Shown here: positions 1 to 41,619 of the stretch, piece by piece
Position numbering within the stretch: position 1 is the stretch's first letter
Layout: each line of letters starts with the position of its first letter
DNA from: a virus
Strand: one strand, 5' to 3'
DNA: 41,619 nt
Virus record (IMG/VR): IMGVR_UViG_3300045988_089644
Position numbers and translations under genes: made by a program
Notes under the pieces: model-generated
What the model was told of the DNA's origin: nothing
The model's input: the letters and a program-made list of their open reading frames with translations, nothing else
Database searches by the model: none

Positions 1-55
1 ATATATTCTTTTCATACATGACTTGAGCTAGTAATATTTTCATATGATTATTATC
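1..55. repeat. Terminal exact direct repeat, copy 1 (identical to 41565..41619); overlap of a circular or circularly permuted genome assembly
   Basis: Read directly: ATATATTCTTTTCATACATGACTTGAGCTAGTAATATTTTCATATGATTATTATC occurs at both window ends. Most of it is coding sequence of the 41410..41607 HTH gene, so it is not an intergenic att or cos site. Confidence 0.95.
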
Positions 56-142: not shown

Positions 143-814
143 ATGCAAATGAAACCGACAAAACGAATGTTGATAACTGTATTCCTTGGATTCTTAGGAG
201 TACATAAGTTTATGGATAGGAAGATTGGAATGGGGTTCTTATACCTGTTCACAATGGGACTTGGAGGTATAGGGTGGATAGTTGATTCATGTAAGGCTAT
301 CGCCGGGTGGTGCAAGTGGATTGCATCGCCAAATAAACACGCTATGGATTTTTCCAAACCTAAGGGTAGACGTTATCAGAATACCCCTTATCATCATCCA
401 GAAACGATACCTGAACCTGAACCCGTGTACAATTTCAACCAGCCTTACGATGATATGGACGGTCACACATTTGAACATTATTGTGCTGACTTATTAACTG
501 AAAACGGTTATGAGAATGTTGAAGTAACAAAAGGAAGTGGAGACCAAGGGCTTGACGTTATTGCATACCGGGATGGTGTTAAGTATGGAATACAATGTAA
601 ATGCTATTCTTCTGACATCGGAAACAAGGCTGTTCAGGAAGCATTTGCAGGTAAGACATATTATAACTGTCATGTTGCTGCAGTCTTAACGAACAGACAC
701 TTTACCAAATCGGCTAAAGAACTGGCTGAAAGTAATAAAGTATTGTTATGGGATAGGGAAAAACTAGAAGAATTTGTTCAAAATTCACATTATTACAATA
801 CTAATTACAATTAA
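143..814 (+). CDS. Membrane-anchored Mrr-type (PD-(D/E)xK) restriction endonuclease-like protein with N-terminal TM2 domain
   Basis: 223-aa ORF. RBS AGGAGG at 134-139; ATG at 143 or, better spaced, at 149. N-terminus FLGFLGVHKFMDRKIGMGFLYLFTMGLGGIGWIVD fits the TM2 two-helix domain. C-terminus GHTFEHYCADLL..GDQGLDVIAY..GIQCKCY..VLTNRHFTKSA fits the Mrr_cat core. Confidence 0.75.
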   Translation: MQMKPTKRMLITVFLGFLGVHKFMDRKIGMGFLYLFTMGLGGIGWIVDSCKAIAGWCKWIASPNKHAMDFSKPKGRRYQNTPYHHPETIPEPEPVYNFNQPYDDMDGHTFEHYCADLLTENGYENVEVTKGSGDQGLDVIAYRDGVKYGIQCKCYSSDIGNKAVQEAFAGKTYYNCHVAAVLTNRHFTKSAKELAESNKVLLWDREKLEEFVQNSHYYNTNYN

Positions 815-1070
815 GCTACGGTTGGCTACACTTTGGCTACGGTTGAAAAATTGCTAAAAGCGGCATAAATAAAGGCTGTTACGGTTGTTACGGTTACACT
901 TAATACTATATACTTATATATTTTATTTTTTTTAAGGTTTTCACCTTTAATTTTTTTACATTTTTAATTAATAAAAGAAATCCTCTTTTACCGTAGTTAC
1001 CGTAATCACCGCATAAATAAGCCATATTAACCGTAGCTTCAACCGTAGCTAACCGTAGCTTTAAGTGTAA
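811..1070. repeat. Composite iteron-like element, copy A: TACGGT-type repeats on the left, an AT-rich core, and ACCGTA(GC) repeats on the right
   Basis: Left arm: AGCTACGGTT, GGCTACGGTT, GTTACGGTT x2. Right arm: TACCGTAGT, TACCGTAAT, then AACCGTAGCT x3. 985..1070 is identical (86/86 by eye) to 26242..26327. Shared blocks GCATAAATAAAGGCT and TATACTTATATATTTT. Confidence 0.9.
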
Positions 1071-1085
1071 CAGCACGAAAAACAT

Positions 1086-1121
1086 AAAAAAAAGACCCTG
1101 ATTGTTGGAGCAATCAAGGTC
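1086..1121 (-). terminator. Intrinsic terminator on the minus strand
   Basis: Minus strand reads GACCTTGATTG-CTCCAA-CAATCAGGGTC followed by T8. The only stem imperfection is a G-U wobble in the minus-strand RNA, but a C-A mismatch in the plus-strand RNA. Confidence 0.75.
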
Positions 1122-1159
1122 AAGAACTAAATCAAACAAAGAATGAAAGATTCAGCACC
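1086..1159 (-). ncRNA. Candidate small RNA of about 70-75 nt (promoter-to-terminator unit) antisense to the region upstream of int
   Basis: Bounded by a TTGAAT-17-TATAAT promoter (1166..1194) and the hairpin+T8 terminator (1086..1121). No ATG-initiated ORF inside. The 5' end is estimated from promoter geometry only. Confidence 0.45.
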
Positions 1160-1165
1160 AATTTA

Positions 1166-1194
1166 ATTATATCATTTCATTCTTTGTTATTCAA
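1166..1194 (-). promoter_or_regulatory. Sigma-A type promoter on the minus strand (TTGAAT-N17-TATAAT)
   Basis: Minus strand reads CCTTTC TTGAAT AACAAAGAATGAAATGA TATAAT TAAATTGG. One arm of the 14-bp inverted repeat (1135..1148 / 1175..1188) lies in the spacer. Confidence 0.55.
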
Positions 1195-2231: not shown

Positions 2232-2249
2232 TAAATTTAATACTGAACC

Positions 2250-2270
2250 AGTAACAAATTAGTAACAAAT
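2250..2270 (+). repeat. AGTAACAAATT-AGTAACAAAT tandem 11-mer pair, copy 1 (candidate integrase arm site)
   Basis: Identical 21-mer found again at 2423..2443. Both flank the int/lysin convergent intergenic region. Confidence 0.8.
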
Positions 2271-2308
2271 CATCTCAAAAACAACGTAAAATAGCGGTTT
2301 TTGAGATG
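2271..2308. terminator. Bidirectional hairpin terminator downstream of int
   Basis: CATCTCAAAAAC (2271-2282) pairs perfectly with GTTTTTGAGATG (2297-2308). 14-nt loop. T-rich tracts follow on both strands. Confidence 0.6.
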
Positions 2309-2422
2309 TTTGTTATTTATTATAGCACAAATCAGTACCACTTCAAAGGGTAGAAAATAACGTATTTATGCGGTTTGTTCAGTATTTACCGCTTGCTATA
2401 TCTCATTAAAACTCCCTCATTT

Positions 2423-2443
2423 AGTAACAAATTAGTAACAAAT
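2423..2443 (+). repeat. AGTAACAAATT-AGTAACAAAT tandem 11-mer pair, copy 2
   Basis: Exact copy of 2250..2270, abutting the endolysin stop codon. A partial inverted copy TAATTTGTT follows at about 2452-2460. Confidence 0.8.
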
Positions 2444-3030
2444 TATTTTGCTAATTTGTTTACGATTTTTCTAATAGCTTCATAGTCATAACCTGCCGCA
2501 ATCAACTTCTTTTTTCGCTCAGGATTGTTTCCCCATTTTCCTGCTAAAACTTCTTTTGCAATCGTTTTATTTGACTTTTTCTTTACGGGTGTGATGAATA
2601 ATTTCTGTTCTGCTTTACGTCTTCGGGTAAGTCCTCTGTAGACCTTACCACCTGCTTTATTGTATTCAAGCAATTTTGCAGCAATCGTAGCTCTGGAACG
2701 AGTACCGTTTGCTGTGAGCTGTTTGATAGAGCCAATATTGTAGCAAAACGATACAAGAGCATCTAGCTCGTTCTGATTCCAATTGTACTGCTTGTCATAT
2801 TTTAAAACGAGTGGAAGATATTTTTTATTAAGAGATTCTTCTAGCCATTTTTCTGCTGTTTCCTTAGAAATCTTAAGGCCTCTTTTGATAGTTGTTCTTG
2901 TGATGCTTTTGTCGCTATTTGTAATCCCATACCCAATAGTCCAAACTCCTACTTCATCACGATCTGCGGTTAAGGGGCATCCTTCAAATTTTTTTACTAA
3001 ATCTAAGCAATTTTTACTAATCTTCTTCAT
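2443..3030 (-). CDS. Endolysin: GH24 phage lysozyme with C-terminal CW_7 (Cpl-7 type) cell-wall-binding repeat
   Basis: 195 aa. LVKKFEGCPLTADRDEVGVWTIGYGIT is the T4-lysozyme-like E/D/T region. C-terminal GKWGNNPERKKKLIAAGYDYEAIRKIVN matches the CW_7 motif. Confidence 0.85.
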   Translation of the reverse strand: MKKISKNCLDLVKKFEGCPLTADRDEVGVWTIGYGITNSDKSITRTTIKRGLKISKETAEKWLEESLNKKYLPLVLKYDKQYNWNQNELDALVSFCYNIGSIKQLTANGTRSRATIAAKLLEYNKAGGKVYRGLTRRRKAEQKLFITPVKKKSNKTIAKEVLAGKWGNNPERKKKLIAAGYDYEAIRKIVNKLAK

Positions 3031-23580: not shown

Positions 23581-24941
23581 CCCTCTTCAAAACCGATTCT
23601 ATCCCGGTAAGGTATCCATGCGTATTGATTAGCGTTGACCGTATGGTCGTTACCGTCTTCCGGCTTGTCCTTTTCTTCATCCCACGAATATGTTTCTAAT
23701 TCATGAATGTGATTAGTGCACGTGTCAACTACTAAATAACAGCCTTGCTGTATCCAGCCGAGCTGTAAGTTAATTCTGTCTAATATTTCAACTTTCTTGT
23801 AACTATCAATAAATGTGTATAAACAACTGTGAAGTCGTTTCCACTTTCGCAACTCTGTCATTGTCGCCTGATCTGCACAGTCAACATATACATTTCTTGC
23901 AAATCCCCACTCTTTGCGACATGATTCAAGAAATTCAATGTATTTAACTGCTGTATCAGAAGGTGCAAGCGGTATGTCTAGTGTTGCATTGTTATATACT
24001 TTTTCAGATAACGTGATTAACTTTCTGTCTTCTGTAATTCCTTGAAAAATCATTGCGATTGTATCAGGAGATTTAGAAGAGTAAGCTGTATCAAGTCCGG
24101 CGGTAAACATTTTGAACTTTACCTTTCCGGCTTTTATCTGTTTCTTTAATTCGTCTTTTTTAATAACGTGCTTACGCACATCAAAATTAGGAAAAATCAA
24201 GCCAGTAGCCTTACCCCGTAAGCCCTGAATCTTATTTTTATACAGCTTCGTGCCAGGTGGTGCTGACCTGATTTTTTTAGCAATATCTTCTTTTGTTAGG
24301 CTGAGATTATCTTCAAACGTAAAAAACCAGTATCGCCATTTCGGTACTGGTGTCTCTGTCAACTCAGACATAATCTCAGCTGGTACATCTTTTTTATATT
24401 TTTTATACGGTCTGGAGCGGTTCACAAATTCCTTGTAAACGGGTAAGTTCGGGTCATCCGGGTTGAGCGTAGCCATGAGGTAATCATTTCTGGTTGATAC
24501 CTCACGAACAAAATCAATGTCTGCCGTGTTTATCTCGTCAATATATACACAACCGTACTGACCGCCCAGTGCATTTTCCCATTGGTCCCTGTTACTGTAC
24601 GGTAATACAAAAATTATCTTATCTTCAAACTTGATATGAGGTATCTTATAACTTTTATCACCGTTACCACAGTAGGTAGCGGTCGGATGTATGTCTAAAA
24701 TACCGTTATCCTGTTGGATGATATTCTTTTCCGCTGTACCTGTTGTTCTACTTGCAATGATGTGTAATTTCTTTTTGCTCTTACTCACCATCCGCATGAA
24801 CTTAACACCTGCACCGACTGTTGTTTTACCTGATGCTGTTGTCCCTTCAAGGAAATCTGCATCTACTCCGTCAACTGTATTGATAAAATCAATGTACTTT
24901 TGCGAAAGTGGGAAAGAACTACTCTTCAAGTCCCTCACCAC
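23577..24941 (-). CDS. terL: Terminase large subunit
   Basis: 454 aa. Walker A GTTASGKT, Walker B-like CVYIDEIN, and a C-terminal nuclease region with acidic motifs. Confidence 0.85.
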   Translation of the reverse strand: MVRDLKSSSFPLSQKYIDFINTVDGVDADFLEGTTASGKTTVGAGVKFMRMVSKSKKKLHIIASRTTGTAEKNIIQQDNGILDIHPTATYCGNGDKSYKIPHIKFEDKIIFVLPYSNRDQWENALGGQYGCVYIDEINTADIDFVREVSTRNDYLMATLNPDDPNLPVYKEFVNRSRPYKKYKKDVPAEIMSELTETPVPKWRYWFFTFEDNLSLTKEDIAKKIRSAPPGTKLYKNKIQGLRGKATGLIFPNFDVRKHVIKKDELKKQIKAGKVKFKMFTAGLDTAYSSKSPDTIAMIFQGITEDRKLITLSEKVYNNATLDIPLAPSDTAVKYIEFLESCRKEWGFARNVYVDCADQATMTELRKWKRLHSCLYTFIDSYKKVEILDRINLQLGWIQQGCYLVVDTCTNHIHELETYSWDEEKDKPEDGNDHTVNANQYAWIPYRDRIGFEEG

Positions 24942-25434
24942 CTAGCTGACTGATAATATCGTCAAGTTTTTCTGACTTCTCTACAGTCACATTAAACTTA
25001 TCAGACCACATTCCTAAGTGTTTTCCTAAGAGTTCAAGTGCTTTAAGTTTAGATGCAATCTTGACCTCTCTTTCAACACTACCCCCGTACTCGTTGTCTG
25101 ATTCCTTATATTTGATTGATTCGATGCAGGCTAGATCATCAGGAGATGCATCCTCTTTGATTTTTCCGTTACTGTCAACAATGTCTGTCATTTTAGCAAA
25201 TGCAACTTTTGCAAGCTCAAGTACAACCCTGTCTTGATTTACTCCTGTACGTTTTGAACGCTGTGCTTGTTTTTCCGCAACTGCCTGTTTAACCTTGACA
25301 TTTGCCAACAGCCTTGAACCTTGTTGGTCTGCTGTTTTAGCTGAATAACCTGCCCTGATAGCCGCCTGTGTTGCGTTCAGGTCAATCAGGTATTCATCTA
25401 CAAACCATTGCTGTTTATCTGTTAGCTTTGCCAT
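24919..25434 (-). CDS. terS: Terminase small subunit (Terminase_2 / P27 family)
   Basis: MAKLTDKQQWFVDEYLIDLNATQAAIRAGYSAKTADQQGSRLL is the family-typical HTH N-terminus. The start is either ATG 25434 or GTG 25440. Confidence 0.9.
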   Translation of the reverse strand: MAKLTDKQQWFVDEYLIDLNATQAAIRAGYSAKTADQQGSRLLANVKVKQAVAEKQAQRSKRTGVNQDRVVLELAKVAFAKMTDIVDSNGKIKEDASPDDLACIESIKYKESDNEYGGSVEREVKIASKLKALELLGKHLGMWSDKFNVTVEKSEKLDDIISQLGGEGLEE

Positions 25435-25456
25435 CCTCACAACACCGCCTTTCTAT

Positions 25457-25587: not shown

Positions 25588-26034
25588 TTATGTAAGATAA
25601 TGCAGATTATCATAAGTCTTTTCGAACGCTTCAAGAGCTTGCTTATGCAGGTCAATAGTGTACGAATACGACAGTTTCATTTCCTGTGCGGCATTCTTCA
25701 CACTCTTAAACTGCACATAGATTTTGGTGAGCACTTGAATGTATCTTTTATCGTGTAAACCTCTGATTTCTCTAATGATCTTGTTCTTTGCGTCAAAAAA
25801 CTCGTCAATTTCTTTGTTTATCTGCTCTTCAAACATGGTATATCTGACAACATCTTTGCATAACTTATCACCGACTGTACTACTCTGTACTCTGTCTTTA
25901 CTATAATCAATACCGCCTGTACTGCAAGCACTTAACTTCATGTTATGTAATTCTGCAAGGTCGTCATTAATCTGCATATCTAAAATTTCAAGCTGTTTCA
26001 AATAATCCCTTGCGCTTATTTTTTTATCGCTCAT
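25588..26034 (-). CDS. DUF1492-type phage late transcriptional regulator (sigma-70 region 4-like)
   Basis: 148 aa. ARDYLKQLEILDMQINDDLAEL ... RVQSS ... YIQVLTKIY ... LSYSYTIDLHKQALEAF matches the DUF1492 pattern found upstream of terminase genes in Firmicutes phages. Confidence 0.7.
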   Translation of the reverse strand: MSDKKISARDYLKQLEILDMQINDDLAELHNMKLSACSTGGIDYSKDRVQSSTVGDKLCKDVVRYTMFEEQINKEIDEFFDAKNKIIREIRGLHDKRYIQVLTKIYVQFKSVKNAAQEMKLSYSYTIDLHKQALEAFEKTYDNLHYLT

Positions 26035-26048
26035 TTTTTACCTCACTT

Positions 26049-26327
26049 TCTTAAGTGTTACGGTTAAGCTACACTTAAGCTACGGTTAAATAAGCAACCG
26101 TAACACTCAAAAACCGCATAAATAAAGGCTCTCAGAGTTTGTGTTACACAAGCTACGCTTAAATGCCCTATACTTATATATTTTTTATATTATTACTATT
26201 TATATAATTACTAATAAATTAAAAAAATAAAGAACATATCGTTTTACCGTAGTTACCGTAATCACCGCATAAATAAGCCATATTAACCGTAGCTTCAACC
26301 GTAGCTAACCGTAGCTTTAAGTGTAAC
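26049..26327. repeat. Composite iteron-like element, copy B
   Basis: Same architecture as 811..1070. 26242..26327 is identical to 985..1070. Shared GCTACACTTAAGCTACGGTT, GCATAAATAAAGGCT and TATACTTATATATTTT blocks in the diverged left part. Confidence 0.9.
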
Positions 26328-27232: not shown

Positions 27233-27423
27233 AATTTTACCCTCACAATTTTATAACCTGCGTTTCTTCCGCTAAGATTTTTACATATACTAGCTGACAC
27301 ACTCTGAGGTTTGATATTTAATTTCTCAGCTAGTTCAATTACTGTATCGGTGACAACAAGAGGTAATTCATACTGATCTGCTGTCACCGCCATATAAATC
27401 ACACTACCGAGTTTATGTTGCAT
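27229..27423 (-). CDS. Small phage protein with HTH-like segment
   Basis: Start MQHKLG at 27423 with an AGGAG RBS 8 nt upstream. Contains ELPLVVTDTVIELAEKLNIKPQSVSASI. Confidence 0.5.
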   Translation of the reverse strand: MQHKLGSVIYMAVTADQYELPLVVTDTVIELAEKLNIKPQSVSASICKNLSGRNAGYKIVRVKL

Positions 27424-29341
27424 TGTTACATCTCCTAAATATCCTGATAGATTTCCCACTGATTCTTGTTACTGCTGTTTCAAGTCCTGTCCGTTTATTG
27501 ATCTGTTTACTAAATACGATATTTGACATTGGCTGCATACCGCATTCTACACAAAATACCTGATACCTCCTGTATACGTCACTTGTTGGTTCATTCTCAA
27601 TCATTTCAATACCGCAGTCATCAATAAAAGCTTTGATAGGGTTATTTTCTCTTTCGTATTCTTCTATCTGTTCATCTACCTTCTTAGATGATGTAAAACC
27701 GTTATTTTCAAGAATACGCTTCAACCCTTGAACCCCTAACTGAATCAGATATTCTATTGAACTTTGTTCAATTAGTTTGTATTTGATGTAAGGGTCATAT
27801 TCCGGGTCAATCGTAATTCCATCAGGTAAATACTTTGAGAATCTCGCATTAAAGGGAATAATGACTAATCGTCTTAATACTGCTCCTGACTTATCTTTCA
27901 TACGAGGAATATCATTAGCAGAAAATAAAAGTTTCACATAAGGATTGAACTCAAACGGGTCTTGTCCTTTTCGTTCTGCCTTAATGCGGTCACCTGTTAC
28001 TATTTTTTTAAACATTGACACCTGTTGACCCTGCATGAAGTTATCTGAAATATCATCACCAATATTAGCTAAGCGTCCGAACATCATCGCAGTGCTAAAT
28101 CGGTCAGCCATTTCAGCCGGGTCTAAAGCGGATGTATTCATATCCCCTAAGATTGTTTTAACAATATGCAGATATGTACTCTTACCGTTCGATTTGTCAC
28201 CTGTCAATACAAAAGACTTACCTAGTTCATTTCTGCGATAGAAACAATATCCGATACATTCCTCTAACAATGATCTGATTGATTTATCATCACAGGATAA
28301 CTTGTTGAGTGTCTTATCTGCTATTTCAGAATAAGCATCCGGGTTATAATCCCACGGTATCTGATTTGTGATTACAAAATCCGAGGAAAACGGCTGCATA
28401 TTTCCTGTGACAATATCAAATATACCGTTCTTGAATGCGATATATCTAGCATCTGACATTTCCTTTTCTTCTGCTATTAATTCCATGTAATCAATTACCT
28501 CTCTACGCTGTGTCTTTTTGAGATTCGGTATTTCCTGAATCATTGCCTTTTCGATAGATTTATACCCCACTTGGTAGATACCGTCATAGTAAATATGCAA
28601 CTGTCCGCTAATACTGACTACGTTTTTCTCTGTTTTAAGCCATGTTGCAAATCGTTCAAAGAGAAATGTCTTATCATTGAAAAATACAGGTTTCTGGAAA
28701 GCTTCATCTCTGAGGATTATTTCCAGTTCATCATCCGAAAGCGGTTCTCTTAATACATATTTATTCAGTATCCTGATTGCTTCTCTTGTTTCATCCACGT
28801 TGAAACCATTTCCCGTAAGTGTCAGAATATAGTTAAATAATGCCTGATTTCTTCCATCACCTGCTTCCATGTCTAAGAAATCAATATTGTTATTTACCGG
28901 GGATAACCACTTAGGTAACTCCTGATAAGCCCCACCTTCTTCAATATCCCACTCAATGAATCTTTCTTCGCCGTGAATCTTAACGACTTCATATGAGGAT
29001 TTTGAGCCGCATTTAATGTCTGCAACTAATCCGATAGCAAGAGGTACATGAGTACGGTTACGAGTGACAGAATGATTTTTAAACAGGAAGTGCCTACCTC
29101 TGGTAGTCTGATACACCCTACAATCAAGTTGATAATCTTCTACAATGTTCATGAGGATTTCAGACTGTTCCCATTCGTCAATATCTACAAGGATAACATC
29201 TTCCTTGAGAACGCCTGCGAAGCTATCACATGATTTCACTTCTTCGTATGTATGAAATTTTGTACGACCTTTAAAGGTTTCCATCGCCTTTTTACCGTTT
29301 GTCTTTATATAACCTTTATATAACATTTCACTACACCTCAA
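27413..29341 (-). CDS. Primase-helicase: N-terminal prim-pol domain, D5_N region, and P4/D5-type SF3 helicase
   Basis: 642 aa. VILVDIDE and TTRGRHFLF (prim-pol). Walker A GDKSNGKST. Walker B-like region LANIGDD. Confidence 0.8.
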   Translation of the reverse strand: MRCSEMLYKGYIKTNGKKAMETFKGRTKFHTYEEVKSCDSFAGVLKEDVILVDIDEWEQSEILMNIVEDYQLDCRVYQTTRGRHFLFKNHSVTRNRTHVPLAIGLVADIKCGSKSSYEVVKIHGEERFIEWDIEEGGAYQELPKWLSPVNNNIDFLDMEAGDGRNQALFNYILTLTGNGFNVDETREAIRILNKYVLREPLSDDELEIILRDEAFQKPVFFNDKTFLFERFATWLKTEKNVVSISGQLHIYYDGIYQVGYKSIEKAMIQEIPNLKKTQRREVIDYMELIAEEKEMSDARYIAFKNGIFDIVTGNMQPFSSDFVITNQIPWDYNPDAYSEIADKTLNKLSCDDKSIRSLLEECIGYCFYRRNELGKSFVLTGDKSNGKSTYLHIVKTILGDMNTSALDPAEMADRFSTAMMFGRLANIGDDISDNFMQGQQVSMFKKIVTGDRIKAERKGQDPFEFNPYVKLLFSANDIPRMKDKSGAVLRRLVIIPFNARFSKYLPDGITIDPEYDPYIKYKLIEQSSIEYLIQLGVQGLKRILENNGFTSSKKVDEQIEEYERENNPIKAFIDDCGIEMIENEPTSDVYRRYQVFCVECGMQPMSNIVFSKQINKRTGLETAVTRISGKSIRIFRRCNNAT

Positions 29342-29814: not shown

Positions 29815-31722
29815 CTATGCTGCAATTCCAAACTGCTTCAATCTCTTTTTTGCTAAGTCTATATACCATTGTCTATCTAGCTCTGGCAGTACATTAACAC
29901 CGACAACTGAATCATTATAAATAAAAGAATGGTCTGGTGTATTTCCAAATTTCTCACCTTTTGGTTTGACTGCTTTACGTTTTAATAACCTACCGTCAGT
30001 CGTGCGATTTGAAGCAAATACACGATAAGACTTATAGCTGTATTTCTCTAAATCAGGATAAGACCAGAAATCTGTTGTCGTTCCGTTACGATGTCGTGTT
30101 GTCTTAATGATCTGACCGCTACCACACTCATGCTCTACCCAGTCATATTTACCTGACAGTTTTACAATCTTTTGAAACATAATTAAGTCATTGCAATTAT
30201 TTATTGTCTGCTCAACAGGTGTCTTATGTACCATATAATCAACGAGTGCTTTATTGAGAATAGGTAAGTCGTAATCAATCGGTGAAAGTTCTTTCAAATA
30301 TGCTCCGATTCTTTCAACACTACCATCAACGCCCACCCACAGATAATTATTTACGTCTTTCTGATAGATTTCTGAAATATTATCAAGTTCAAGCAATATT
30401 GAACACTGTTCAGTAGAACAACGCTGTTCCCATTCGTAACAAATATCATCTACCATGTTAAAGGCTTCGTCTGTGTCAGGAATCCAGATGATAAGACCAT
30501 CGGTATTGGACTGAATCAGTTCAAACCCCGGTACAACTTCCAGATGTTCGATTAAATCAAGTAACATTAATTGTCCGTTAATACACATAATGTTGTTGTT
30601 ACGTGGGTCATATGCTGCATTTGTCTCGTCTTTCATCGCACCAGACAGGGCATTAAGCATTTTCTTATAAGGCAACTGTGCCTTTTTCCACCGCTTAGCT
30701 TCTGCCTTATTACCTGCTTTAGCCGCTGCGATCTGCTTTTTCTTCATACCTTTTCTGGTGTTATATACCAGCTTGAAATTATTATTTGTAGCTGCCCTTG
30801 TTACAAGTCCCCATGCTATTAACAACGATGGATAGTAGTTATTTACATCAACATGAAGAATCTGACCTTTTCTGTGAATCGGCTTTTTAGATGCCCCATG
30901 CAGACCACCGAAACCGAACGTATGAGGTATACCTGCGACTGTAGTTTCAAGGTTATGTGAGTTATACCAAATCTTTTTATCCCACTTATCGAAATCCTGT
31001 AAATTCATGTTAAGGGCTTCTTTTCTTCTTTCTGCAAACCACTCTTGTACATATTTGTATTTTTTCAGTCTGAGACAAGGGAGAAAATAGAAGTCAAATT
31101 CATCATTAAACTTTTTCTTTTCACAACCGAGGACTTTTGCAGTAATACGTGCTTCACTGTCTCCGATGTCATACAGATTCGTTTCATTCGGGAACGCCTG
31201 AATGATACCGTGTATTGCATTGAATTCGCTGACTTTTTCAAGAAATACCTTGATAGTCTGTTCTACGTCATGTCTACAATATTTCACTGTCTGTTTTATT
31301 TCGCTGCGTGTCAGTTTTCTTCTGATTCGGAAATCAACCTCAGTTTCTTTGATGTTAGAACCCATGAAACCTTCCATTGTTTTCAAACCTACGGTTTTCA
31401 TACTTTCATCATTACTTGGCATCACATCATAGTTAATCATAGGTATCTTGTTGAATGCTCTTGAATAAGCCCAGCCTTCCTTATTTTCTACGATAATCCA
31501 GTCGTTGATTGCTTTCGGGTTCATCCCAAGCAGAATACCCTTCATGATATATTGGTCGTAATGCCTGTTGTTGAATCCTACCCATATGTTCTTTCTATTG
31601 GCTTCATATAAGGCTTTTAATTCATCAGGGTTATTAATTATCACGTGTTCTTTTCGATTCGCTACATCAATGAATACCGCTAACCAGTCTTGATGAAAAA
31701 CCTCAAAATCGTAGAATATCAT
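29815..31722 (-). CDS. Family B DNA polymerase with 3'-5' exonuclease domain
   Basis: 635 aa. ExoI FYDFEV, ExoII NNRHYDQYI, ExoIII YCRHDVEQT. Pol motif A DVNNYYPSLL, motif B KKMLNALSGAM, motif C SNTDGL. Confidence 0.8.
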   Translation of the reverse strand: MIFYDFEVFHQDWLAVFIDVANRKEHVIINNPDELKALYEANRKNIWVGFNNRHYDQYIMKGILLGMNPKAINDWIIVENKEGWAYSRAFNKIPMINYDVMPSNDESMKTVGLKTMEGFMGSNIKETEVDFRIRRKLTRSEIKQTVKYCRHDVEQTIKVFLEKVSEFNAIHGIIQAFPNETNLYDIGDSEARITAKVLGCEKKKFNDEFDFYFLPCLRLKKYKYVQEWFAERRKEALNMNLQDFDKWDKKIWYNSHNLETTVAGIPHTFGFGGLHGASKKPIHRKGQILHVDVNNYYPSLLIAWGLVTRAATNNNFKLVYNTRKGMKKKQIAAAKAGNKAEAKRWKKAQLPYKKMLNALSGAMKDETNAAYDPRNNNIMCINGQLMLLDLIEHLEVVPGFELIQSNTDGLIIWIPDTDEAFNMVDDICYEWEQRCSTEQCSILLELDNISEIYQKDVNNYLWVGVDGSVERIGAYLKELSPIDYDLPILNKALVDYMVHKTPVEQTINNCNDLIMFQKIVKLSGKYDWVEHECGSGQIIKTTRHRNGTTTDFWSYPDLEKYSYKSYRVFASNRTTDGRLLKRKAVKPKGEKFGNTPDHSFIYNDSVVGVNVLPELDRQWYIDLAKKRLKQFGIAA

Positions 31723-36722: not shown

Positions 36723-37877
36723 CTATTTACCCTCACTTTCAATCTTGATACCTGTACACTGTTCGAAAATCTCAATGTCAAAATTAGGAATTGACTTGAT
36801 TTTATTTCTATCTGTTTCTGAAAGATCATTCCACCAAATCTGAGCGCATTCAGATTCATCAAGAACTTTAAGATAACCGCCTGTTGTCTTATAAGATGGA
36901 TGTGCTTTCTTTTCTTCTTCCGTCATATAATTCTCATATACCCACTCAACGACATCTTTAGGAATATCCATCAGCAAGTATCTAGCATCAGAATTTAACC
37001 AATCTCTGTATGTCCATTTGGATGGTTTATTGAACAACATGATTGTTGATTCTTCTGTGTTAAAACAACCAGTATTGAAAGAAGATTTGTTCCAGTCCCC
37101 GGTGTTTCTGTTCCCGGTGTTGCAGTCCCCGGTGTTTCTGTTCCCGGTGTTGCAGTTCCCGGTGTTGCAGTCCCCGGTGTTGCAGTCCCCGGTGTTGCAG
37201 TTCCCGGTGTTGCAGTCCCCGGTGTTCCAGTCCCCGGTGTTGCAGTCCCCGGTGTTCCAGTCCCCGGTGTTGCAGTCCCCGGTGTTGCAGTCCCCGGTGT
37301 TGCAGTTCCCGGTGTTGCAGTCCCCGGTGTTGCAGTTCCCGGTGTTTCTGTTCCCGGTGTTCCAGTCCCCGGTGTTCCAGTCCCCGGTGTTCCAGTCCCC
37401 GGTGTTGCAGTTCCCGGTGTTTCTGTTCCCGGTGTTGCAGTCCCCGGTGTTCCAGTCCCCGGTGTTTCTGTTCCCGGTGTTCCAGTCCCCGGTGTTTCTG
37501 TTCCCGGTGTTGCAGTCCCCGGTGTTGCAGTCCCCGGTGTTGCAGTCCCCGGTGTTGCAGAGTCCTGTACAACTCTTTCCTGTATTTACGATAGTTAAGA
37601 GTTCCTGCCATGGGATTTCACGAACTATTTTGATTTTATTCGTACAGCACTTATCATCACCTCTTACGATGTCACCGTATGCGATAACTTCCGCTACCTT
37701 ATTGTCAGGATTAAAGCTATAATAATTAAAACAATCCGCTGCATTCTCACAAAAATGAAAACCTCTGTCACAACAACTTGGTTCAACATCTTCTTCAAAG
37801 ATTTTTCCTACCTCATACTGGAAACCTCTGCAAGTCCAATCTGGATTAAAAACCTTAAATCCTCTTACTTCGTTCAT
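36723..37877 (-). CDS. Pentapeptide-repeat protein: conserved Cys-rich N-terminal domain, about 31 perfect G(D/N)(C/W/R)NT repeats, and a C-terminal domain
   Basis: Start MNEVRGFKVFNPDW at 37877 with a GAGAGG RBS. N-terminal domain FKVFNPDWTCRGFQYEVGK...CDRGFHFCEN. The repeat run NTGDC/NTGDW/NTGNR was read directly. Confidence 0.8.
   Translation of the reverse strand: MNEVRGFKVFNPDWTCRGFQYEVGKIFEEDVEPSCCDRGFHFCENAADCFNYYSFNPDNKVAEVIAYGDIVRGDDKCCTNKIKIVREIPWQELLTIVNTGKSCTGLCNTGDCNTGDCNTGDCNTGNRNTGDWNTGNRNTGDWNTGDCNTGNRNTGNCNTGDWNTGDWNTGDWNTGNRNTGNCNTGDCNTGNCNTGDCNTGDCNTGDWNTGDCNTGDWNTGDCNTGNCNTGDCNTGDCNTGNCNTGNRNTGDCNTGNRNTGDWNKSSFNTGCFNTEESTIMLFNKPSKWTYRDWLNSDARYLLMDIPKDVVEWVYENYMTEEEKKAHPSYKTTGGYLKVLDESECAQIWWNDLSETDRNKIKSIPNFDIEIFEQCTGIKIESEGK
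37091..37560 (-). repeat. Tandem array of about 31 x 15 bp (CCCGGTGTTnCAGTn on the plus strand) encoding the pentapeptide repeats
   Basis: Visible as near-identical 15-mers across eight sequence lines. All six frames are open across it. Confidence 0.95.
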
Positions 37878-37901
37878 TTCTGTTACCTCTCTTTCTCGAC
37901 C

Positions 37902-38048
37902 TAGTTTTCGCATACTTCAATGTTAATAATTCTCGCTGAACTATGTGTTTTCTTGAAATTTTCTTTTACTTCTTCCTCGCTTGCAGCCCTGCCATACCAT
38001 TCGGATGTATAACAGTTCTGTCCATAATAAACTCTATATAATCTCATG
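37902..38048 (-). CDS. Hypothetical protein (48 aa, below the ORF-track cutoff)
   Basis: Hand translation: MRLYRVYYGQNCYTSEWYGRAASEEEVKENFKKTHSSARIINIEVCEN. AGAGAGGA RBS upstream. Confidence 0.45.
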
Positions 38049-40092: not shown

Positions 40093-40260
40093 CTAAAGCT
40101 TAAGGTTACTAGCTTCTACGGTACGGGCATCTCTGATTACGCTTTCGGTACGATTAAGTAATCGGATTGCCTGTGCTGTAGTAAGATCTTTTTCACGTAA
40201 CCATTCGTAAAGCTCTTTTACCATTTCGGCATTATCCCATGCTGCAAATACTGGTTGCAT
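40093..40260 (-). CDS. Hypothetical protein (55 aa, below the ORF-track cutoff)
   Basis: Hand translation: MQPVFAAWDNAEMVKELYEWLREKDLTTAQAIRLLNRTESVIRDARTVEASNLKL. GAGGTG RBS. Confidence 0.45.
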   Translation of the reverse strand: MQPVFAAWDNAEMVKELYEWLREKDLTTAQAIRLLNRTESVIRDARTVEASNLKL

Positions 40261-40342
40261 CTCTTCACCTCACTTTCTATGACCTGCCATCATCAGTACC
40301 GGGAGGTCATTCCCGGCAGACGGTCATTTCTGACCGTTTCGG

Positions 40343-40576
40343 CTAATTTGAAATGTTCTGCAATCCTGCAATCACAAGTGCAAGTGATGTTATTCCGTTG
40401 TTTTCTTTTTTTGCCTGAGCCGTCAATGCTGAATAAAGTTCATGAGGTATATTCTTCGTGCCGTTTAAAACTGCTAAACATTCATCGTAGGTTAATAAAT
40501 TAATCATTTCTTTCGCCTGCTCAATATTTTCAAGCTTATCAATTTTCTTATTTGCTAAATCTTCTCTTGTTATCAT
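40343..40576 (-). CDS. First early-operon protein (Cro position, no obvious HTH)
   Basis: 77 aa. AGGAGGAAAAC RBS. Immediately downstream of the divergent promoter/operator region. Confidence 0.55.
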   Translation of the reverse strand: MITREDLANKKIDKLENIEQAKEMINLLTYDECLAVLNGTKNIPHELYSALTAQAKKENNGITSLALVIAGLQNISN

Positions 40577-40710: not shown

Positions 40711-40732
40711 AATTAGAAAGGAGGTGTCAAAA

Positions 40733-41113
40733 ATGAATCATCTTAATGAAAGAATTAATTATCTGATAAAGAGTCTCGGGATGAAAAAAACAGCTTTCGC
40801 TGAAAAACTTAATGTATCGCAGGCTTTTGTATCACAATTATGTTCAGGAGTTAAACAACCTAGCGAAAGAACAATACAAGATATATGTACTAAATTTAAT
40901 GTGAATGAAGAATGGTTACGAACTGGAAAGGGCGAAATATTCATCAGGTTATCTCGTAACGATGAGATTTCAAAATTCGTTGGGGAATTAATGAAAGAGG
41001 AAGAAGATTCCTTTAAGAATAGGTTAATCGCGGGACTGGCTGCGTTAGATGATACTGGATGGGACGTGTTAGAAACATTCCTTAATTCAATCCAACCAAA
41101 AGAAAAAGACTAG
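40733..41113 (+). CDS. CI-like XRE-family repressor without a peptidase S24 domain
   Basis: ATG at 40733 is 8 nt after AAAGGAGG. LGMKKTAFAEKLNVSQAFVSQLCSGVKQPS is an HTH_XRE segment. The C-terminal ~55 aa show no Ser/Lys S24 signature. Confidence 0.7.
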   Translation: MNHLNERINYLIKSLGMKKTAFAEKLNVSQAFVSQLCSGVKQPSERTIQDICTKFNVNEEWLRTGKGEIFIRLSRNDEISKFVGELMKEEEDSFKNRLIAGLAALDDTGWDVLETFLNSIQPKEKD

Positions 41114-41409: not shown

Positions 41410-41607
41410 TTATTTTATATTTGTCTCAAAAAGGTCTGTTATCTGACAATTCAGAGCAATAGCAAGTTTTTCAAGTGTCCGAATCTTCGGGTTAGAATCT
41501 TCGTTCATATCATCCTGAATAGTTGACTTTGGTACTCCTGATTTAAGGGAAAGCTGCCTAATGGATATATTCTTTTCATACATGACTTGAGCTAGTAATA
41601 TTTTCAT
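41410..41607 (-). CDS. Small XRE-family HTH regulator, divergent from the TM2-Mrr gene on the circular map
   Basis: 65 aa. ISIRQLSLKSGVPKSTIQDDMN is the HTH. No clear SD. The 5' end lies in the terminal repeat. Confidence 0.7.
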   Translation of the reverse strand: MKILLAQVMYEKNISIRQLSLKSGVPKSTIQDDMNEDSNPKIRTLEKLAIALNCQITDLFETNIK

Positions 41608-41619
41608 ATGATTATTATC
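41565..41619. repeat. Terminal exact direct repeat, copy 2
   Basis: Identical to 1..55. Confidence 0.95.

What the first reader, a model, noticed from the sequence alone, without database searches (positions are those of the whole stretch)
811..1070. Composite iteron-like element of about 270 bp, present twice and sharing an identical 86-bp arm
Copy A is 811-1070 and copy B is 26049-26327. They share one architecture:
- A left arm with several (A/G)GCTACGGTT or GTTACGGTT repeats.
- An AT-rich core containing the conserved TATACTTATATATTTT block.
- A right arm with TACCGTAGT, TACCGTAAT and three AACCGTAGCT repeats in the opposite orientation.
- GCATAAATAA(A/G)G once in each half.
The right arms (985-1070 and 26242-26327) are identical over 86 bp, while the left halves have diverged except for the motif blocks. 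Neither copy is coding, and the track ORF 906..1139 is an artefact of the repeat.
Oppositely oriented 9-10 bp iteron arrays around an AT-rich spacer resemble replication origins, partition (parC/parS-like) sites, TerS pac sites and MITE-like elements. I cannot tell which applies. No listed feature explains the element.
Basis: seen in the sequence. Interest (0 to 1): 0.7.

Follow-up and report, generated by a model that had tools for sequence, protein, structure and literature searches.

The report
Duplicated iteron-type phage replication origin
The twice-occurring 270-bp repeat element is most likely the replication origin of a temperate phage of gut Lachnospiraceae, bound by the phage's own primase-helicase; this kind of origin is already known from staphylococcal pathogenicity islands and phage P4, and here it is present in two copies.

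Summary
Two about 270-bp non-coding elements (811-1071 and 26049-26327) share one layout: an iteron arm, an 85-87% AT spacer, and an inverted iteron arm. An 86-bp arm is identical in both (986-1071 = 26242-26327).

The window is a circular temperate phage of Lachnospiraceae. Copy B sits 1.1 kb downstream of a D5-like SF3 primase-helicase, just upstream of the late-regulator and TerS genes. 79 of 80 related phages have an iteron array at that position, but the 9-mer differs between them (at least 8 types).

The iteron type tracks the last about 25 residues of the primase-helicase, which are the wing of a C-terminal winged helix. It does not track TerS, the late regulator or two small neighbouring proteins.

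The protein is homologous to SaPI5 PriRep5, whose winged helix binds inverted iteron sets flanking an AT-rich centre. So this is a SaPI/P4-type origin.

- It is not attP; the real attP is at about 2235-2446.
- It is not a TerS site.
- It is not a MITE.

Copy A, upstream of int, is a facultative second copy. Two other genomes with different iteron types also carry one, each matching its own origin. Its role is unresolved: second origin, P4 crr-like site, or control site.

The parts
26049..26327 (.). Copy B: the primary origin. It lies at the early/late junction, 1.1 kb downstream of the primase-helicase gene and 15 bp upstream of the start codon of the late-regulator gene.
   Evidence: Relatives carry an iteron array at this position in 79 of 80 loci. 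Alignment A4 shows the architecture is conserved across iteron types.
26049..26160 (-). Copy B proximal arm. Iterons at 26057-65, 26068-76, 26079-87 and 26152-60 (all -) and 26096-104 (+). Conserved box CCGCATAAATAAAGG around 26114-26128.
26161..26244 (.). Copy B AT-rich spacer (86.9% AT), the presumed DNA unwinding region. It contains the conserved block TATACTTATATATTTT at 26169-26184.
   Evidence: The block is conserved across iteron types.
26242..26327 (+). Copy B distal arm, 100% identical to 986-1071. Iterons at 26245-53, 26254-62, 26285-93, 26297-305, 26307-15 and 26318-26; box CCGCATAAATAAGCC.
811..1071 (.). Copy A: a complete second copy between the Mrr/TM2 moron gene (143-814) and the integrase gene (1212-2231), in direct orientation relative to copy B.
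   Evidence: An almost identical copy at the same locus is present in an independent contig, L405.
811..896 (-). Copy A left arm. Iterons at 815-23, 825-33, 836-44, 878-86 and 887-95 (all -). Box GCGGCATAAATAAAGG at 860-875.
897..988 (.). Copy A AT-rich spacer (84.8% AT), with the block TATACTTATATATTTT at 909-924.
986..1071 (+). Copy A right arm, the 86-bp block identical to 26242-26327. Iterons at 989-97, 998-1006, 1029-37, 1041-49, 1051-59 and 1062-70.
27413..29341 (-). Gene for the 642-aa D5-like SF3 primase-helicase (D5_N, DUF5906, Pox_D5; PHROG 864 'DNA primase'). This is the inferred initiator (Rep) that binds the iterons.
   Evidence: It is homologous to SaPI5 PriRep5, PDB 7OLA, E 3.2e-33.
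27431..27526 (-). Codons for recognition helix SNIVFSKQINKR (residues 606-617) and the beta-hairpin wing (residues 620-637) of the C-terminal winged helix. These are the residues that change whenever the iteron type changes.
   Evidence: AlphaFold model, pLDDT 84. Foldseek best matches are winged-helix DNA-binding domains. Covariation.

Best explanation
Each copy is an iteron-type origin of replication of the SaPI/P4 class. The phage's own SF3 primase-helicase (27413-29341, - strand) recognises the 9-bp iterons (consensus AACCGTAGC) through the recognition helix and wing of its C-terminal winged-helix domain.

Inferred mechanism, by analogy with SaPI Rep: two oppositely oriented iteron sets load initiator hexamers on either side of the 84-92-bp, about 85% AT spacer. 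The spacer melts, and primase and the phage DNA polymerase (29815-31722) start synthesis.

Copy B (26049-26327) is the ancestral, near-universal origin of this phage group. Copy A (811-1071) is a second, facultative copy upstream of int that keeps the same iteron specificity. One arm is kept identical to the copy B arm, either by recent duplication or by gene conversion. Copy A then acts as a second origin or as an auxiliary Rep-binding site, like P4 crr or a plasmid control locus.

Shown here: the anatomy, conservation at this position, covariation of iteron and Rep wing, and homology of Rep to SaPI5 PriRep5. Inferred: binding, melting and initiation, and any role for copy A.
For: 1. Architecture. 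Copy A has 5-6 iterons per arm, all oriented against the other arm. Copy B has 5 iterons (four '-', one '+') in its proximal arm and 6 ('+') in its distal arm. The arms flank an 85-87% AT spacer.

2. Conservation. 79 of 80 phages carrying the homologous late-regulator gene have an iteron array immediately upstream of it. Across 67 origins the median is 9 iterons and an 81-bp spacer of 83% AT, with arms in opposite orientation in 64 of 67. They lie 520-2482 bp downstream of the primase-helicase gene.

3. Concerted motif switching. At least 8 iteron types occur (AACCGTAAC, AACCGTTAC, AACTGTAAC, AACCGTAGA, AACCGTAGT, AACCGTAGC, AAGTGTAAC, AACCGATAC). The inter-iteron box, the spacer and the block stay conserved.

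4. Specificity partner.
- Every distinct C-terminal tail of the primase-helicase maps to a single iteron type.
- Among pairs whose first roughly 590 residues are at least 95% identical, same-iteron pairs have 99.2% tail identity and different-iteron pairs 68.6%.
- At least 7 independent switches were seen. Examples: L367/L369, body 99.5%, tail 64.9%; L327/L347, body 98.8%, six tail substitutions; window/L325, body 97%, tail 81%.
- No identical tail occurs with two iteron types.

5. Negative controls. TerS, the late regulator, a 73-aa protein and a 94-aa wHTH-like protein can each be 100% identical between phages with different iterons.

6. Homology. The protein matches SaPI5 PriRep5 (PDB 7OLA) at E 3.2e-33 over residues 248-614. 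PMC9371898 states that the winged helix in the SaPI Rep C-terminal domain recognises iterons, that 6-12 iterons form the ori with an AT-rich centre, and that at least two iterons on each side point in opposite directions.

7. Structure. The modelled C-terminal domain is a winged helix (pLDDT 84). Its best PDB matches are the RFX DNA-binding domain and the Orc1/Cdc6 winged helices bound to origin DNA. The variable residues fall on the wing and on the start of the recognition helix.

8. PICI-like relatives (L109, L114) carry the same iteron/AT/iteron unit directly after the stop codon of their D5-like gene.

9. Two copies elsewhere. Two other genomes with other iteron types (contigs 000328 and 127166) also have a second copy upstream of int. 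In each, the second copy matches that genome's own origin, and in 127166 the match is 179 bp at 100% identity.
Against: - No experimental or read-coverage data were available. Binding and initiation are inferred.
- Unlike SaPIs, the element does not lie directly after the rep stop codon. Five small ORFs lie in between.
- GC skew gives no origin signal, because it simply follows transcription direction. There are no DnaA boxes.
- Foldseek E-values for the winged helix are weak (0.018), although probabilities are high.
- Covariation shows that Rep is the specificity partner of the iterons. It does not show that binding leads to initiation; a purely regulatory Rep operator in front of the late regulator gene is not excluded.
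- Many relatives do without copy A (contigs 063248, 075825, 107363), so copy A is not essential.
Confidence: 0.8

Rival explanations
1. Rep-binding regulatory operator rather than an origin. The primase-helicase binds the iterons to control transcription that reads from the early operon into the late-regulator gene (copy B) and around int (copy A). The true origin would lie elsewhere.
For: Copy B ends 15 bp before the late-regulator start codon, and no terminator is predicted between the early operon and that gene. The conserved block next to the proximal arm contains -10-like sequences. Covariation proves only that Rep is the binding partner.
Against: The layout is that of proven SaPI origins: two inverted iteron sets around an about 80-bp, about 85% AT spacer. 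No other iteron cluster exists in the window, where 14 of 18 near-exact iterons are in these two elements. In PICI-like relatives the same unit follows rep directly, as in SaPIs. Copy A in the window points its block-proximal arm away from int, whereas in contig 127166 it points towards int, which argues against a fixed promoter role.
Confidence: 0.1
2. Packaging recognition site (pac or cos). TerS binds the repeats on both sides of a cleavage site in the AT spacer, as in SPP1 pacL/pacC/pacR.
For: Copy B lies about 600 bp upstream of the TerS gene (24919-25440). 12 of 80 related contigs end 113-278 nt upstream of the late-regulator gene, that is, inside the element.
Against: TerS is 100% identical between phages whose iterons differ (AACCGTAAC against AACCGTTAC), so it cannot be the specificity partner. 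A second directly repeated packaging site 25 kb away would cut the genome into sub-genomic pieces. Contig ends inside the element are expected from assembly breaks at a two-copy repeat or in an AT-rich stretch. The int-side elements of contigs 000328 and 127166 show that such repeats exist.
Confidence: 0.04
3. attP. The repeats are arm-type binding sites for the adjacent tyrosine integrase, and the AT block is the crossover core.
For: Copy A lies 140 bp upstream of int. Its size (about 260 bp) and its layout of inverted arm repeats around a core resemble lambda attP.
Against: The real attP is downstream of int, at about 2235-2446. It has AGTAACAAATTAGTAACAAAT at 2250-2270 and 2423-2443. The phage-form contig L004 and the Roseburia MAG prophage junction L086 are identical up to CATTATAYCAYAAATT and then diverge. 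Many close Int relatives have no element upstream of int. The iterons co-vary with Rep, and copy B has no integrase nearby.
Confidence: 0.02
4. A selfish MITE-like mobile element, or a partition (parS/parC) site.
For: The ends are inverted and repeat-rich (GTTACACTTAA... / ...TTAAGTGTAAC). The element is absent upstream of int in many relatives, and its orientation there varies.
Against: It occurs only at two conserved positions. There is no target-site duplication (flanks). The exact 31-nt arm was found in one IMG/VR contig, and a second 31-nt stretch of the arm was found in one metagenome contig. Both are at the same loci. No transposase or Par protein was found among the ORFs scanned. Iteron/Rep covariation is not expected for a MITE.
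Confidence: 0.03

Closest known systems
SaPI / PICI replication origins bound by Rep or Pri-Rep self-loading SF3 helicases (Staphylococcus aureus pathogenicity islands; PMC9371898 and the work it cites)
   Same: - The initiator is an SF3 helicase with a C-terminal winged helix.
- The origin is 6-12 short iterons in two oppositely oriented sets around an AT-rich centre.
- Iteron and Rep specificity are matched within each element.
- The window protein is a sequence homologue of PriRep5 (E 3.2e-33).
   Different: - The host element is a full 41.5-kb temperate phage of Lachnospiraceae, not a satellite.
- Iterons are 9 bp, against 5-6 bp in SaPIs.
- The origin lies 0.5-2.5 kb from rep, at the early/late junction, rather than directly after rep.
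- Each arm also carries a conserved box (GCATAAATAAGG-like), and the spacer carries a conserved TATACTTATATATTTT block.
- Some genomes have a second copy next to int.
Satellite phage P4 ori and crr, bound by the alpha primase-helicase (own knowledge: Flensburg and Calendar 1987; Ziegelin et al. 1993; Yeo et al. 2002, PDB 1KA8). The winged-helix organisation of alpha is stated in PMC2777425.
   Same: - One polypeptide carries primase, SF3 helicase and a C-terminal winged-helix origin-binding domain.
- Two separate iteron clusters lie kilobases apart in one genome and carry the same iteron.
   Different: - P4 iterons are TGTTCACC and are arranged differently.
- crr is 4.5 kb from ori and is required; here the second copy is 25 kb (or 16 kb) away and many relatives lack it.
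- The primase domain is of a different type.
- PDB chain 1KA8 was not recovered by the sequence search.
Bacillus phage SPP1 oriL and oriR, bound by G38P (own knowledge: Pedre et al. 1994; Missich et al. 1997)
   Same: A phage genome with two distant copies of the initiator-binding repeat unit, each next to an AT-rich region.
   Different: The initiator family is unrelated (G38P is a replisome organiser that needs a separate helicase loader and helicase), and the repeats are direct.
Iteron plasmids with an extra iteron cluster used for copy-number control by titration or handcuffing (P1 incA, F incC; own knowledge; general review PMC4980987)
   Same: A second iteron array outside the minimal origin that binds the same initiator.
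   Different: Those initiators are RepA-type winged-helix proteins without helicase activity. Their control loci lack the full origin layout, whereas copy A is a complete origin-like unit.

Membership tests
SaPI/PICI-type Rep-iteron origin | The initiator is an SF3 (D5-like) helicase, alone or fused to a primase, homologous to SaPI Rep. | tested here: met
   Pfam D5_N, DUF5906 and Pox_D5. PHROG 864. phmmer match to PriRep5, PDB 7OLA, E 3.2e-33.
SaPI/PICI-type Rep-iteron origin | A C-terminal winged-helix domain that reads the iterons. | tested here: met
   AlphaFold model with pLDDT 84 and helix-helix-helix-hairpin topology. Foldseek best matches are the RFX DNA-binding domain and the Orc1/Cdc6 winged helices, probability 0.96-1.0 but E only 0.02-0.07. 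Wing residues co-vary with the iteron type. Binding itself was not tested.
SaPI/PICI-type Rep-iteron origin | 6-12 iterons in two sets around an AT-rich centre, with at least two on each side pointing in opposite directions. | tested here: met
   for the window and 67 relatives. The definition is taken from PMC9371898.
SaPI/PICI-type Rep-iteron origin | The origin lies immediately downstream of the rep ORF. | tested here: not met
   Copy B starts 1086 bp after the rep stop codon, with five small ORFs between. Copy A is about 13 kb from rep. Relatives range from 520 to 2482 bp. The feature is met in the PICI-like relative L109.
SaPI/PICI-type Rep-iteron origin | Each Rep is specific for its cognate iterons. 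| tested here: met
   Tested by covariation only. Each tail maps to one iteron type, there are at least 7 independent joint switches, and four neighbouring proteins serve as negative controls.
SaPI/PICI-type Rep-iteron origin | Rep-dependent melting and initiation at the element. | not testable with these tools
   Needs EMSA or footprinting, plasmid replication assays, or marker-frequency sequencing.
P4 ori/crr pair | Two separated iteron clusters with the same iteron, both required in cis for replication. | tested here: inconclusive
   Two clusters with the same iteron are present. Whether both are required cannot be tested here. Relatives with only one copy argue that the second is dispensable.
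Tyrosine-integrase attP | A core shared with attB, so that prophage junctions split the element. | tested here: not met
   The junction maps downstream of int at about 2318-2334 within 2235-2446. Relatives with int but no element exist.
TerS-bound pac/cos site | The repeats are recognised by the cognate small terminase. | tested here: not met
   TerS is 100% identical across different iteron types.
MITE | Terminal inverted repeats with target-site duplications, and dispersed copies at unrelated loci. | tested here: not met
   No duplication at the flanks. The element occurs only at two conserved positions in relatives. The exact arm occurs only at the same loci in public contigs.

The most novel reading that the evidence does not exclude
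The second copy next to int is not a passive duplicate. It has been acquired or kept independently in at least three lineages with three different iteron types, in either orientation, and is homogenised with the resident origin (86 bp and 179 bp at 100% identity). It would then be a selected, Rep-matched partner site.

Two possible roles:
- A P4 crr-like site, or a handcuffing site, that loops the 16-kb lysogeny/early segment.
- A second origin that, in the prophage, fires beside attL and int.

Because the two copies are direct repeats in this window, recombination between them could also resolve the genome into two circles, each with a hybrid origin.
Probability: 0.2. Interest if true: 0.65.

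Novelty: new member of a known kind. Interest (0 to 1): 0.42.

Why it matters
- It assigns a replication origin and an initiator to a large, uncultured group of temperate phages of human-gut Lachnospiraceae. More than 200 relatives are in IMG/VR.
- It explains a conspicuous repeat that annotation pipelines leave blank or cover with a spurious ORF.
- The natural series of at least 8 iteron types, paired with near-isogenic primase-helicases that differ only in about 25 wing residues, is a ready-made data set. It could be used to work out how an RFX-like winged helix reads DNA, and to design orthogonal origin/initiator pairs for gut Firmicutes.
- Mismatched origin specificity probably sets replication incompatibility, or immunity, between co-infecting relatives.
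- The recurrent, homogenised second copy beside int raises a testable question about two-site control of phage replication.

Tried and rejected
- blastn of copy A against 50,697 GenBank phage records gave no match.
- The exact pattern TACCGTAGTTACCGTAA in IMG/VR hit only unrelated coding repeats apart from L001.
- The loose pattern GTTACGGT-N(1-4)-GTTACGGT gave mostly chance or coding hits, but it revealed the L127 group.
- attP hypothesis: rejected after the real attP was mapped downstream of int. No tRNA was found in the window or in the 8 MAG loci scanned, which include L086.
- Rfam found nothing in either copy, so an RNA gene is unlikely.
- TerS, the DUF1492-like regulator, a 73-aa protein and a 94-aa wHTH-like protein were each tested as the iteron partner and rejected.
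- GC skew follows transcription direction and says nothing about the origin. DnaA boxes are not enriched and none lies in the elements.
- The open-access library does not hold the primary P4 ori/crr papers, so those statements rest on my own knowledge.
- I could not obtain full genomes for most relatives that carry an int-side element. The frequency of two-copy genomes is therefore only roughly known: 1 of 46 contigs for one arm type, and 1 of 4 contigs where both sites were visible.

Full report
**1. What the window is**

The first and last 55 bases are identical, so this is a circularly assembled genome of 41,564 bp. Its gene content is that of a temperate siphovirus-like phage.
- Lysogeny genes are a tyrosine integrase (1212-2231, +) and a cI-like HTH protein (40724-41113, +).
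- An early operon on the - strand encodes an antirepressor, an SNF2 helicase, an Hjc-like resolvase, a DNA polymerase (29815-31722) and a D5-like primase-helicase (27413-29341).
- It is followed by a DUF1492-like regulator (25588-26034), TerS (24919-25440) and the structural and lysis genes, down to a lysozyme (2443-3030).
- Integrase relatives occur in MAGs and isolates of Roseburia, Lachnospira, Acetatifactor and other Lachnospiraceae.

**2. The observation**

- ACCGTAR occurs 20 times against 5.2 expected, with 17 of the 20 in the two copies. Of 18 near-exact AACCGTAGC 9-mers in the genome, 14 lie in these 540 bp.
- The arms are inverted relative to each other.
- The spacers are 84.8% and 86.9% AT, against 62.8% for the genome.
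- GCATAAATAA occurs once per arm and TATACTTATATATTTT once per copy, and neither occurs anywhere else.

**3. It is not attP**

Copy A sits next to int and looks like an attP, so I tested that first.
- The repeat AGTAACAAATTAGTAACAAAT occurs twice downstream of int (2250-2270 and 2423-2443). It is conserved in that position in many relatives.
- A phage-form contig (L004) and a Roseburia MAG (L086) are identical up to CATTATAYCAYAAATT and then diverge. This places the crossover at about 2318-2334.
- Many close Int relatives have no composite element upstream of int at all (L006-8, L014, L087, L089, L091, L092).

**4. The element is a conserved feature of the phage group**

- A pattern search and searches with the late regulator and the primase-helicase found relatives. 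79 of 80 carry an iteron array immediately upstream of the late-regulator gene.
- Alignment A4 gives the common plan: distal arm (3-4 iterons, a CTTTATTTATGCGG-like box, 2 iterons), then about 80 bp of AT-rich DNA, then the block AAAATATATAAGTATAGG, then the proximal arm (2-3 iterons, box, 2-4 iterons), then the ribosome-binding site of the regulator gene.
- Across 67 origins the median is 9 iterons and an 81-bp spacer of 83% AT. The arms are opposed in 64 of 67.
- The 9-mer differs between phages (at least 8 types), and it changes at every iteron position at once, while box, spacer and block stay the same. An example is L245 against the window.

**5. Which protein reads the iterons**

Concerted switching implies a matching protein.
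- TerS, the late regulator, a 73-aa protein and a 94-aa wHTH-like protein are excluded. Each can be 100% identical between phages with different iterons.
- The primase-helicase fits. Each distinct C-terminal tail maps to a single iteron type.
- Among pairs whose first roughly 590 residues are at least 95% identical, same-iteron pairs have 99.2% tail identity and different-iteron pairs 68.6%.
- At least seven independent joint switches are seen:
  - L367/L369: body 99.5%, tail 64.9%.
  - L327/L347: body 98.8%, six substitutions, AACCGTAAC to AACTGTAAC.
  - L348/L354: three substitutions.
  - Window/L325: body 97%, tail 81%, AACCGTAGC to AAGTGTAAC.
- The reverse does not hold strictly, because several tails share one iteron type.

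**6. What the protein is**

- It matches SaPI5 PriRep5 (PDB 7OLA) at E 3.2e-33 over residues 248-614.
- The paper describing that structure (PMC9371898) says the following. SaPI Reps are self-loading SF3 helicases. A winged helix in their C-terminal domain recognises iterons. 6-12 iterons form the ori, with an AT-rich centre and at least two iterons on each side pointing in opposite directions.
- An AlphaFold model of residues 500-642 (41-sequence alignment, pLDDT 84) has a winged helix. SNIVFSKQINKR is the recognition helix and residues 620-637 form the wing, which is where the specificity-linked substitutions fall.
- Foldseek's best matches are the RFX DNA-binding domain and the Orc1/Cdc6 winged helices on origin DNA. 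Probabilities are high and E-values are weak.
- PMC2777425 notes that P4 alpha has the same primase, SF3 helicase and winged-helix organisation. It also notes that in RFX both helix 3 and the wing contact DNA.
- PICI-like loci in Bacilli MAGs (L109, L114) have a D5-like gene next to a related int, with the same iteron/AT/iteron unit right after its stop codon.

**7. The second copy**

- Copy A is a complete unit in direct orientation to copy B. It carries the same iteron type and one identical arm, while its other arm and spacer have diverged.
- Related int-side copies exist in a minority of relatives: 28 of 107 int loci have at least 6 inverted copies of a 6-mer there. These include distant Oscillospiraceae phages with GGAACAG or ACAGAT iterons.
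- Where both sites of one genome were visible, three genomes have only the copy B site.
- Contig 000328 has halves of both copies, with matching ACCGTAGAC iterons.
- Contig 127166 has two copies that are 100% identical over 179 bp. Its int-side copy is flipped relative to the window arrangement.
- L001 (copy B) and L405 (copy A), from other samples, carry the same T-to-C change in the shared arm. This hints at homogenisation, but they are not proven to be from one genome.
- The second copy therefore recurs, always matches the resident Rep, and is dispensable. Whether it fires, cooperates with copy B as P4 crr does with ori, or titrates Rep cannot be decided here.

**8. Rivals**

- A packaging site is unlikely, because TerS does not co-vary and two direct sites would fragment the genome. 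The excess of contig ends inside the element is what a two-copy repeat or an AT-rich stretch would cause.
- A MITE is unlikely. The element has two fixed positions, no target duplication, and its exact arm occurs only at the same loci elsewhere.
- A purely regulatory Rep operator remains possible at roughly 10%.

**9. Verdict**

This is a SaPI/P4-class iteron origin in a Lachnospiraceae temperate phage, present twice. The class is known. The new aspects are this phage group, the 9-bp iterons, the extra box and block, the position at the early/late junction, and the recurrent Rep-matched second copy beside int. Interest is moderate. The wing/iteron series is the most useful by-product.

Noticed in passing
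window 40278-40344 (-): A type II hammerhead ribozyme (Rfam RF02276, 50.5 bits against a gathering score of 37, E 1.3e-07). It lies inside the early leftward transcription unit, between ORFs 40093-40260 and 40343-40576.
   Followed up: no
window 2235-2446: The real attP. Paired arm repeats AGTAACAAATTAGTAACAAAT lie at 2250-2270 and 2423-2443, and the crossover region is around 2318-2334 (ATTATAGCACAAAT). This was inferred by comparing phage-form L004 with the Roseburia MAG junction L086. No tRNA is present at the site.
   Followed up: partly
window 1086-1194: Features on the - strand between copy A and int:
- an intrinsic terminator (stem 1121-1094, followed by a T-run);
- a strong promoter-like site (1194-1166, TG-extended TATAAT);
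- a 12-bp inverted repeat, AAAGAATGAAAGAT...ATCATTTCATTCTTT, at about 1139-1186.
The terminator and the inverted repeat are conserved in Int relatives whether or not they carry copy A. Together they could specify a roughly 75-nt RNA divergent from int, or an int operator.
   Followed up: no
window 36968-37640, within ORF 36723-37913 (-): About 45 tandem 15-nt repeats that encode a pentapeptide-repeat protein with a DUF7666 N-terminus. A pentapeptide-repeat (DNA-mimic-like) protein in the early region might be an anti-defence or anti-gyrase factor.
   Followed up: no
window 1-55 and 41565-41619: An exact 55-nt terminal direct repeat. This is the signature of a circular assembly at k = 55; the true genome length is 41,564 bp.
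   Followed up: yes
L017 about 1210-1680 (contig IMGVR_UViG_3300045988_127166); also L108 1399-1668: A gene just upstream of the int-side origin copy encodes a protein whose C-terminus resembles the origin-binding winged helix of the primase-helicase (36% identity to residues 577-635), but with a different wing. It could be a stand-alone iteron-binding regulator or an exclusion factor. This recalls the P4 Cnr/alpha winged-helix interplay.
   Followed up: no
L109, L111, L113, L114, L117 (Bacilli, Erysipelotrichaceae and Mycoplasma-like MAGs): Integrases 50-51% identical to the window Int occur on the same fetched loci (up to about 21 kb) as a D5-like primase-helicase gene 51-63% identical to the window's. 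In L109 and L114 the two genes lie about 1.5 kb apart and an iteron/AT/iteron origin sits beside rep. In L111 and L117 the iteron unit lies just upstream of int, about 8 kb from rep. These loci look like PICI-type satellites or small prophages.
   Followed up: partly
L405 beyond position 637 (window equivalent 1473): An independent metagenome contig is 99% identical to the window from copy A into the first roughly 260 nt of int. It then loses detectable DNA similarity, which indicates a mosaic breakpoint inside the integrase gene.
   Followed up: no
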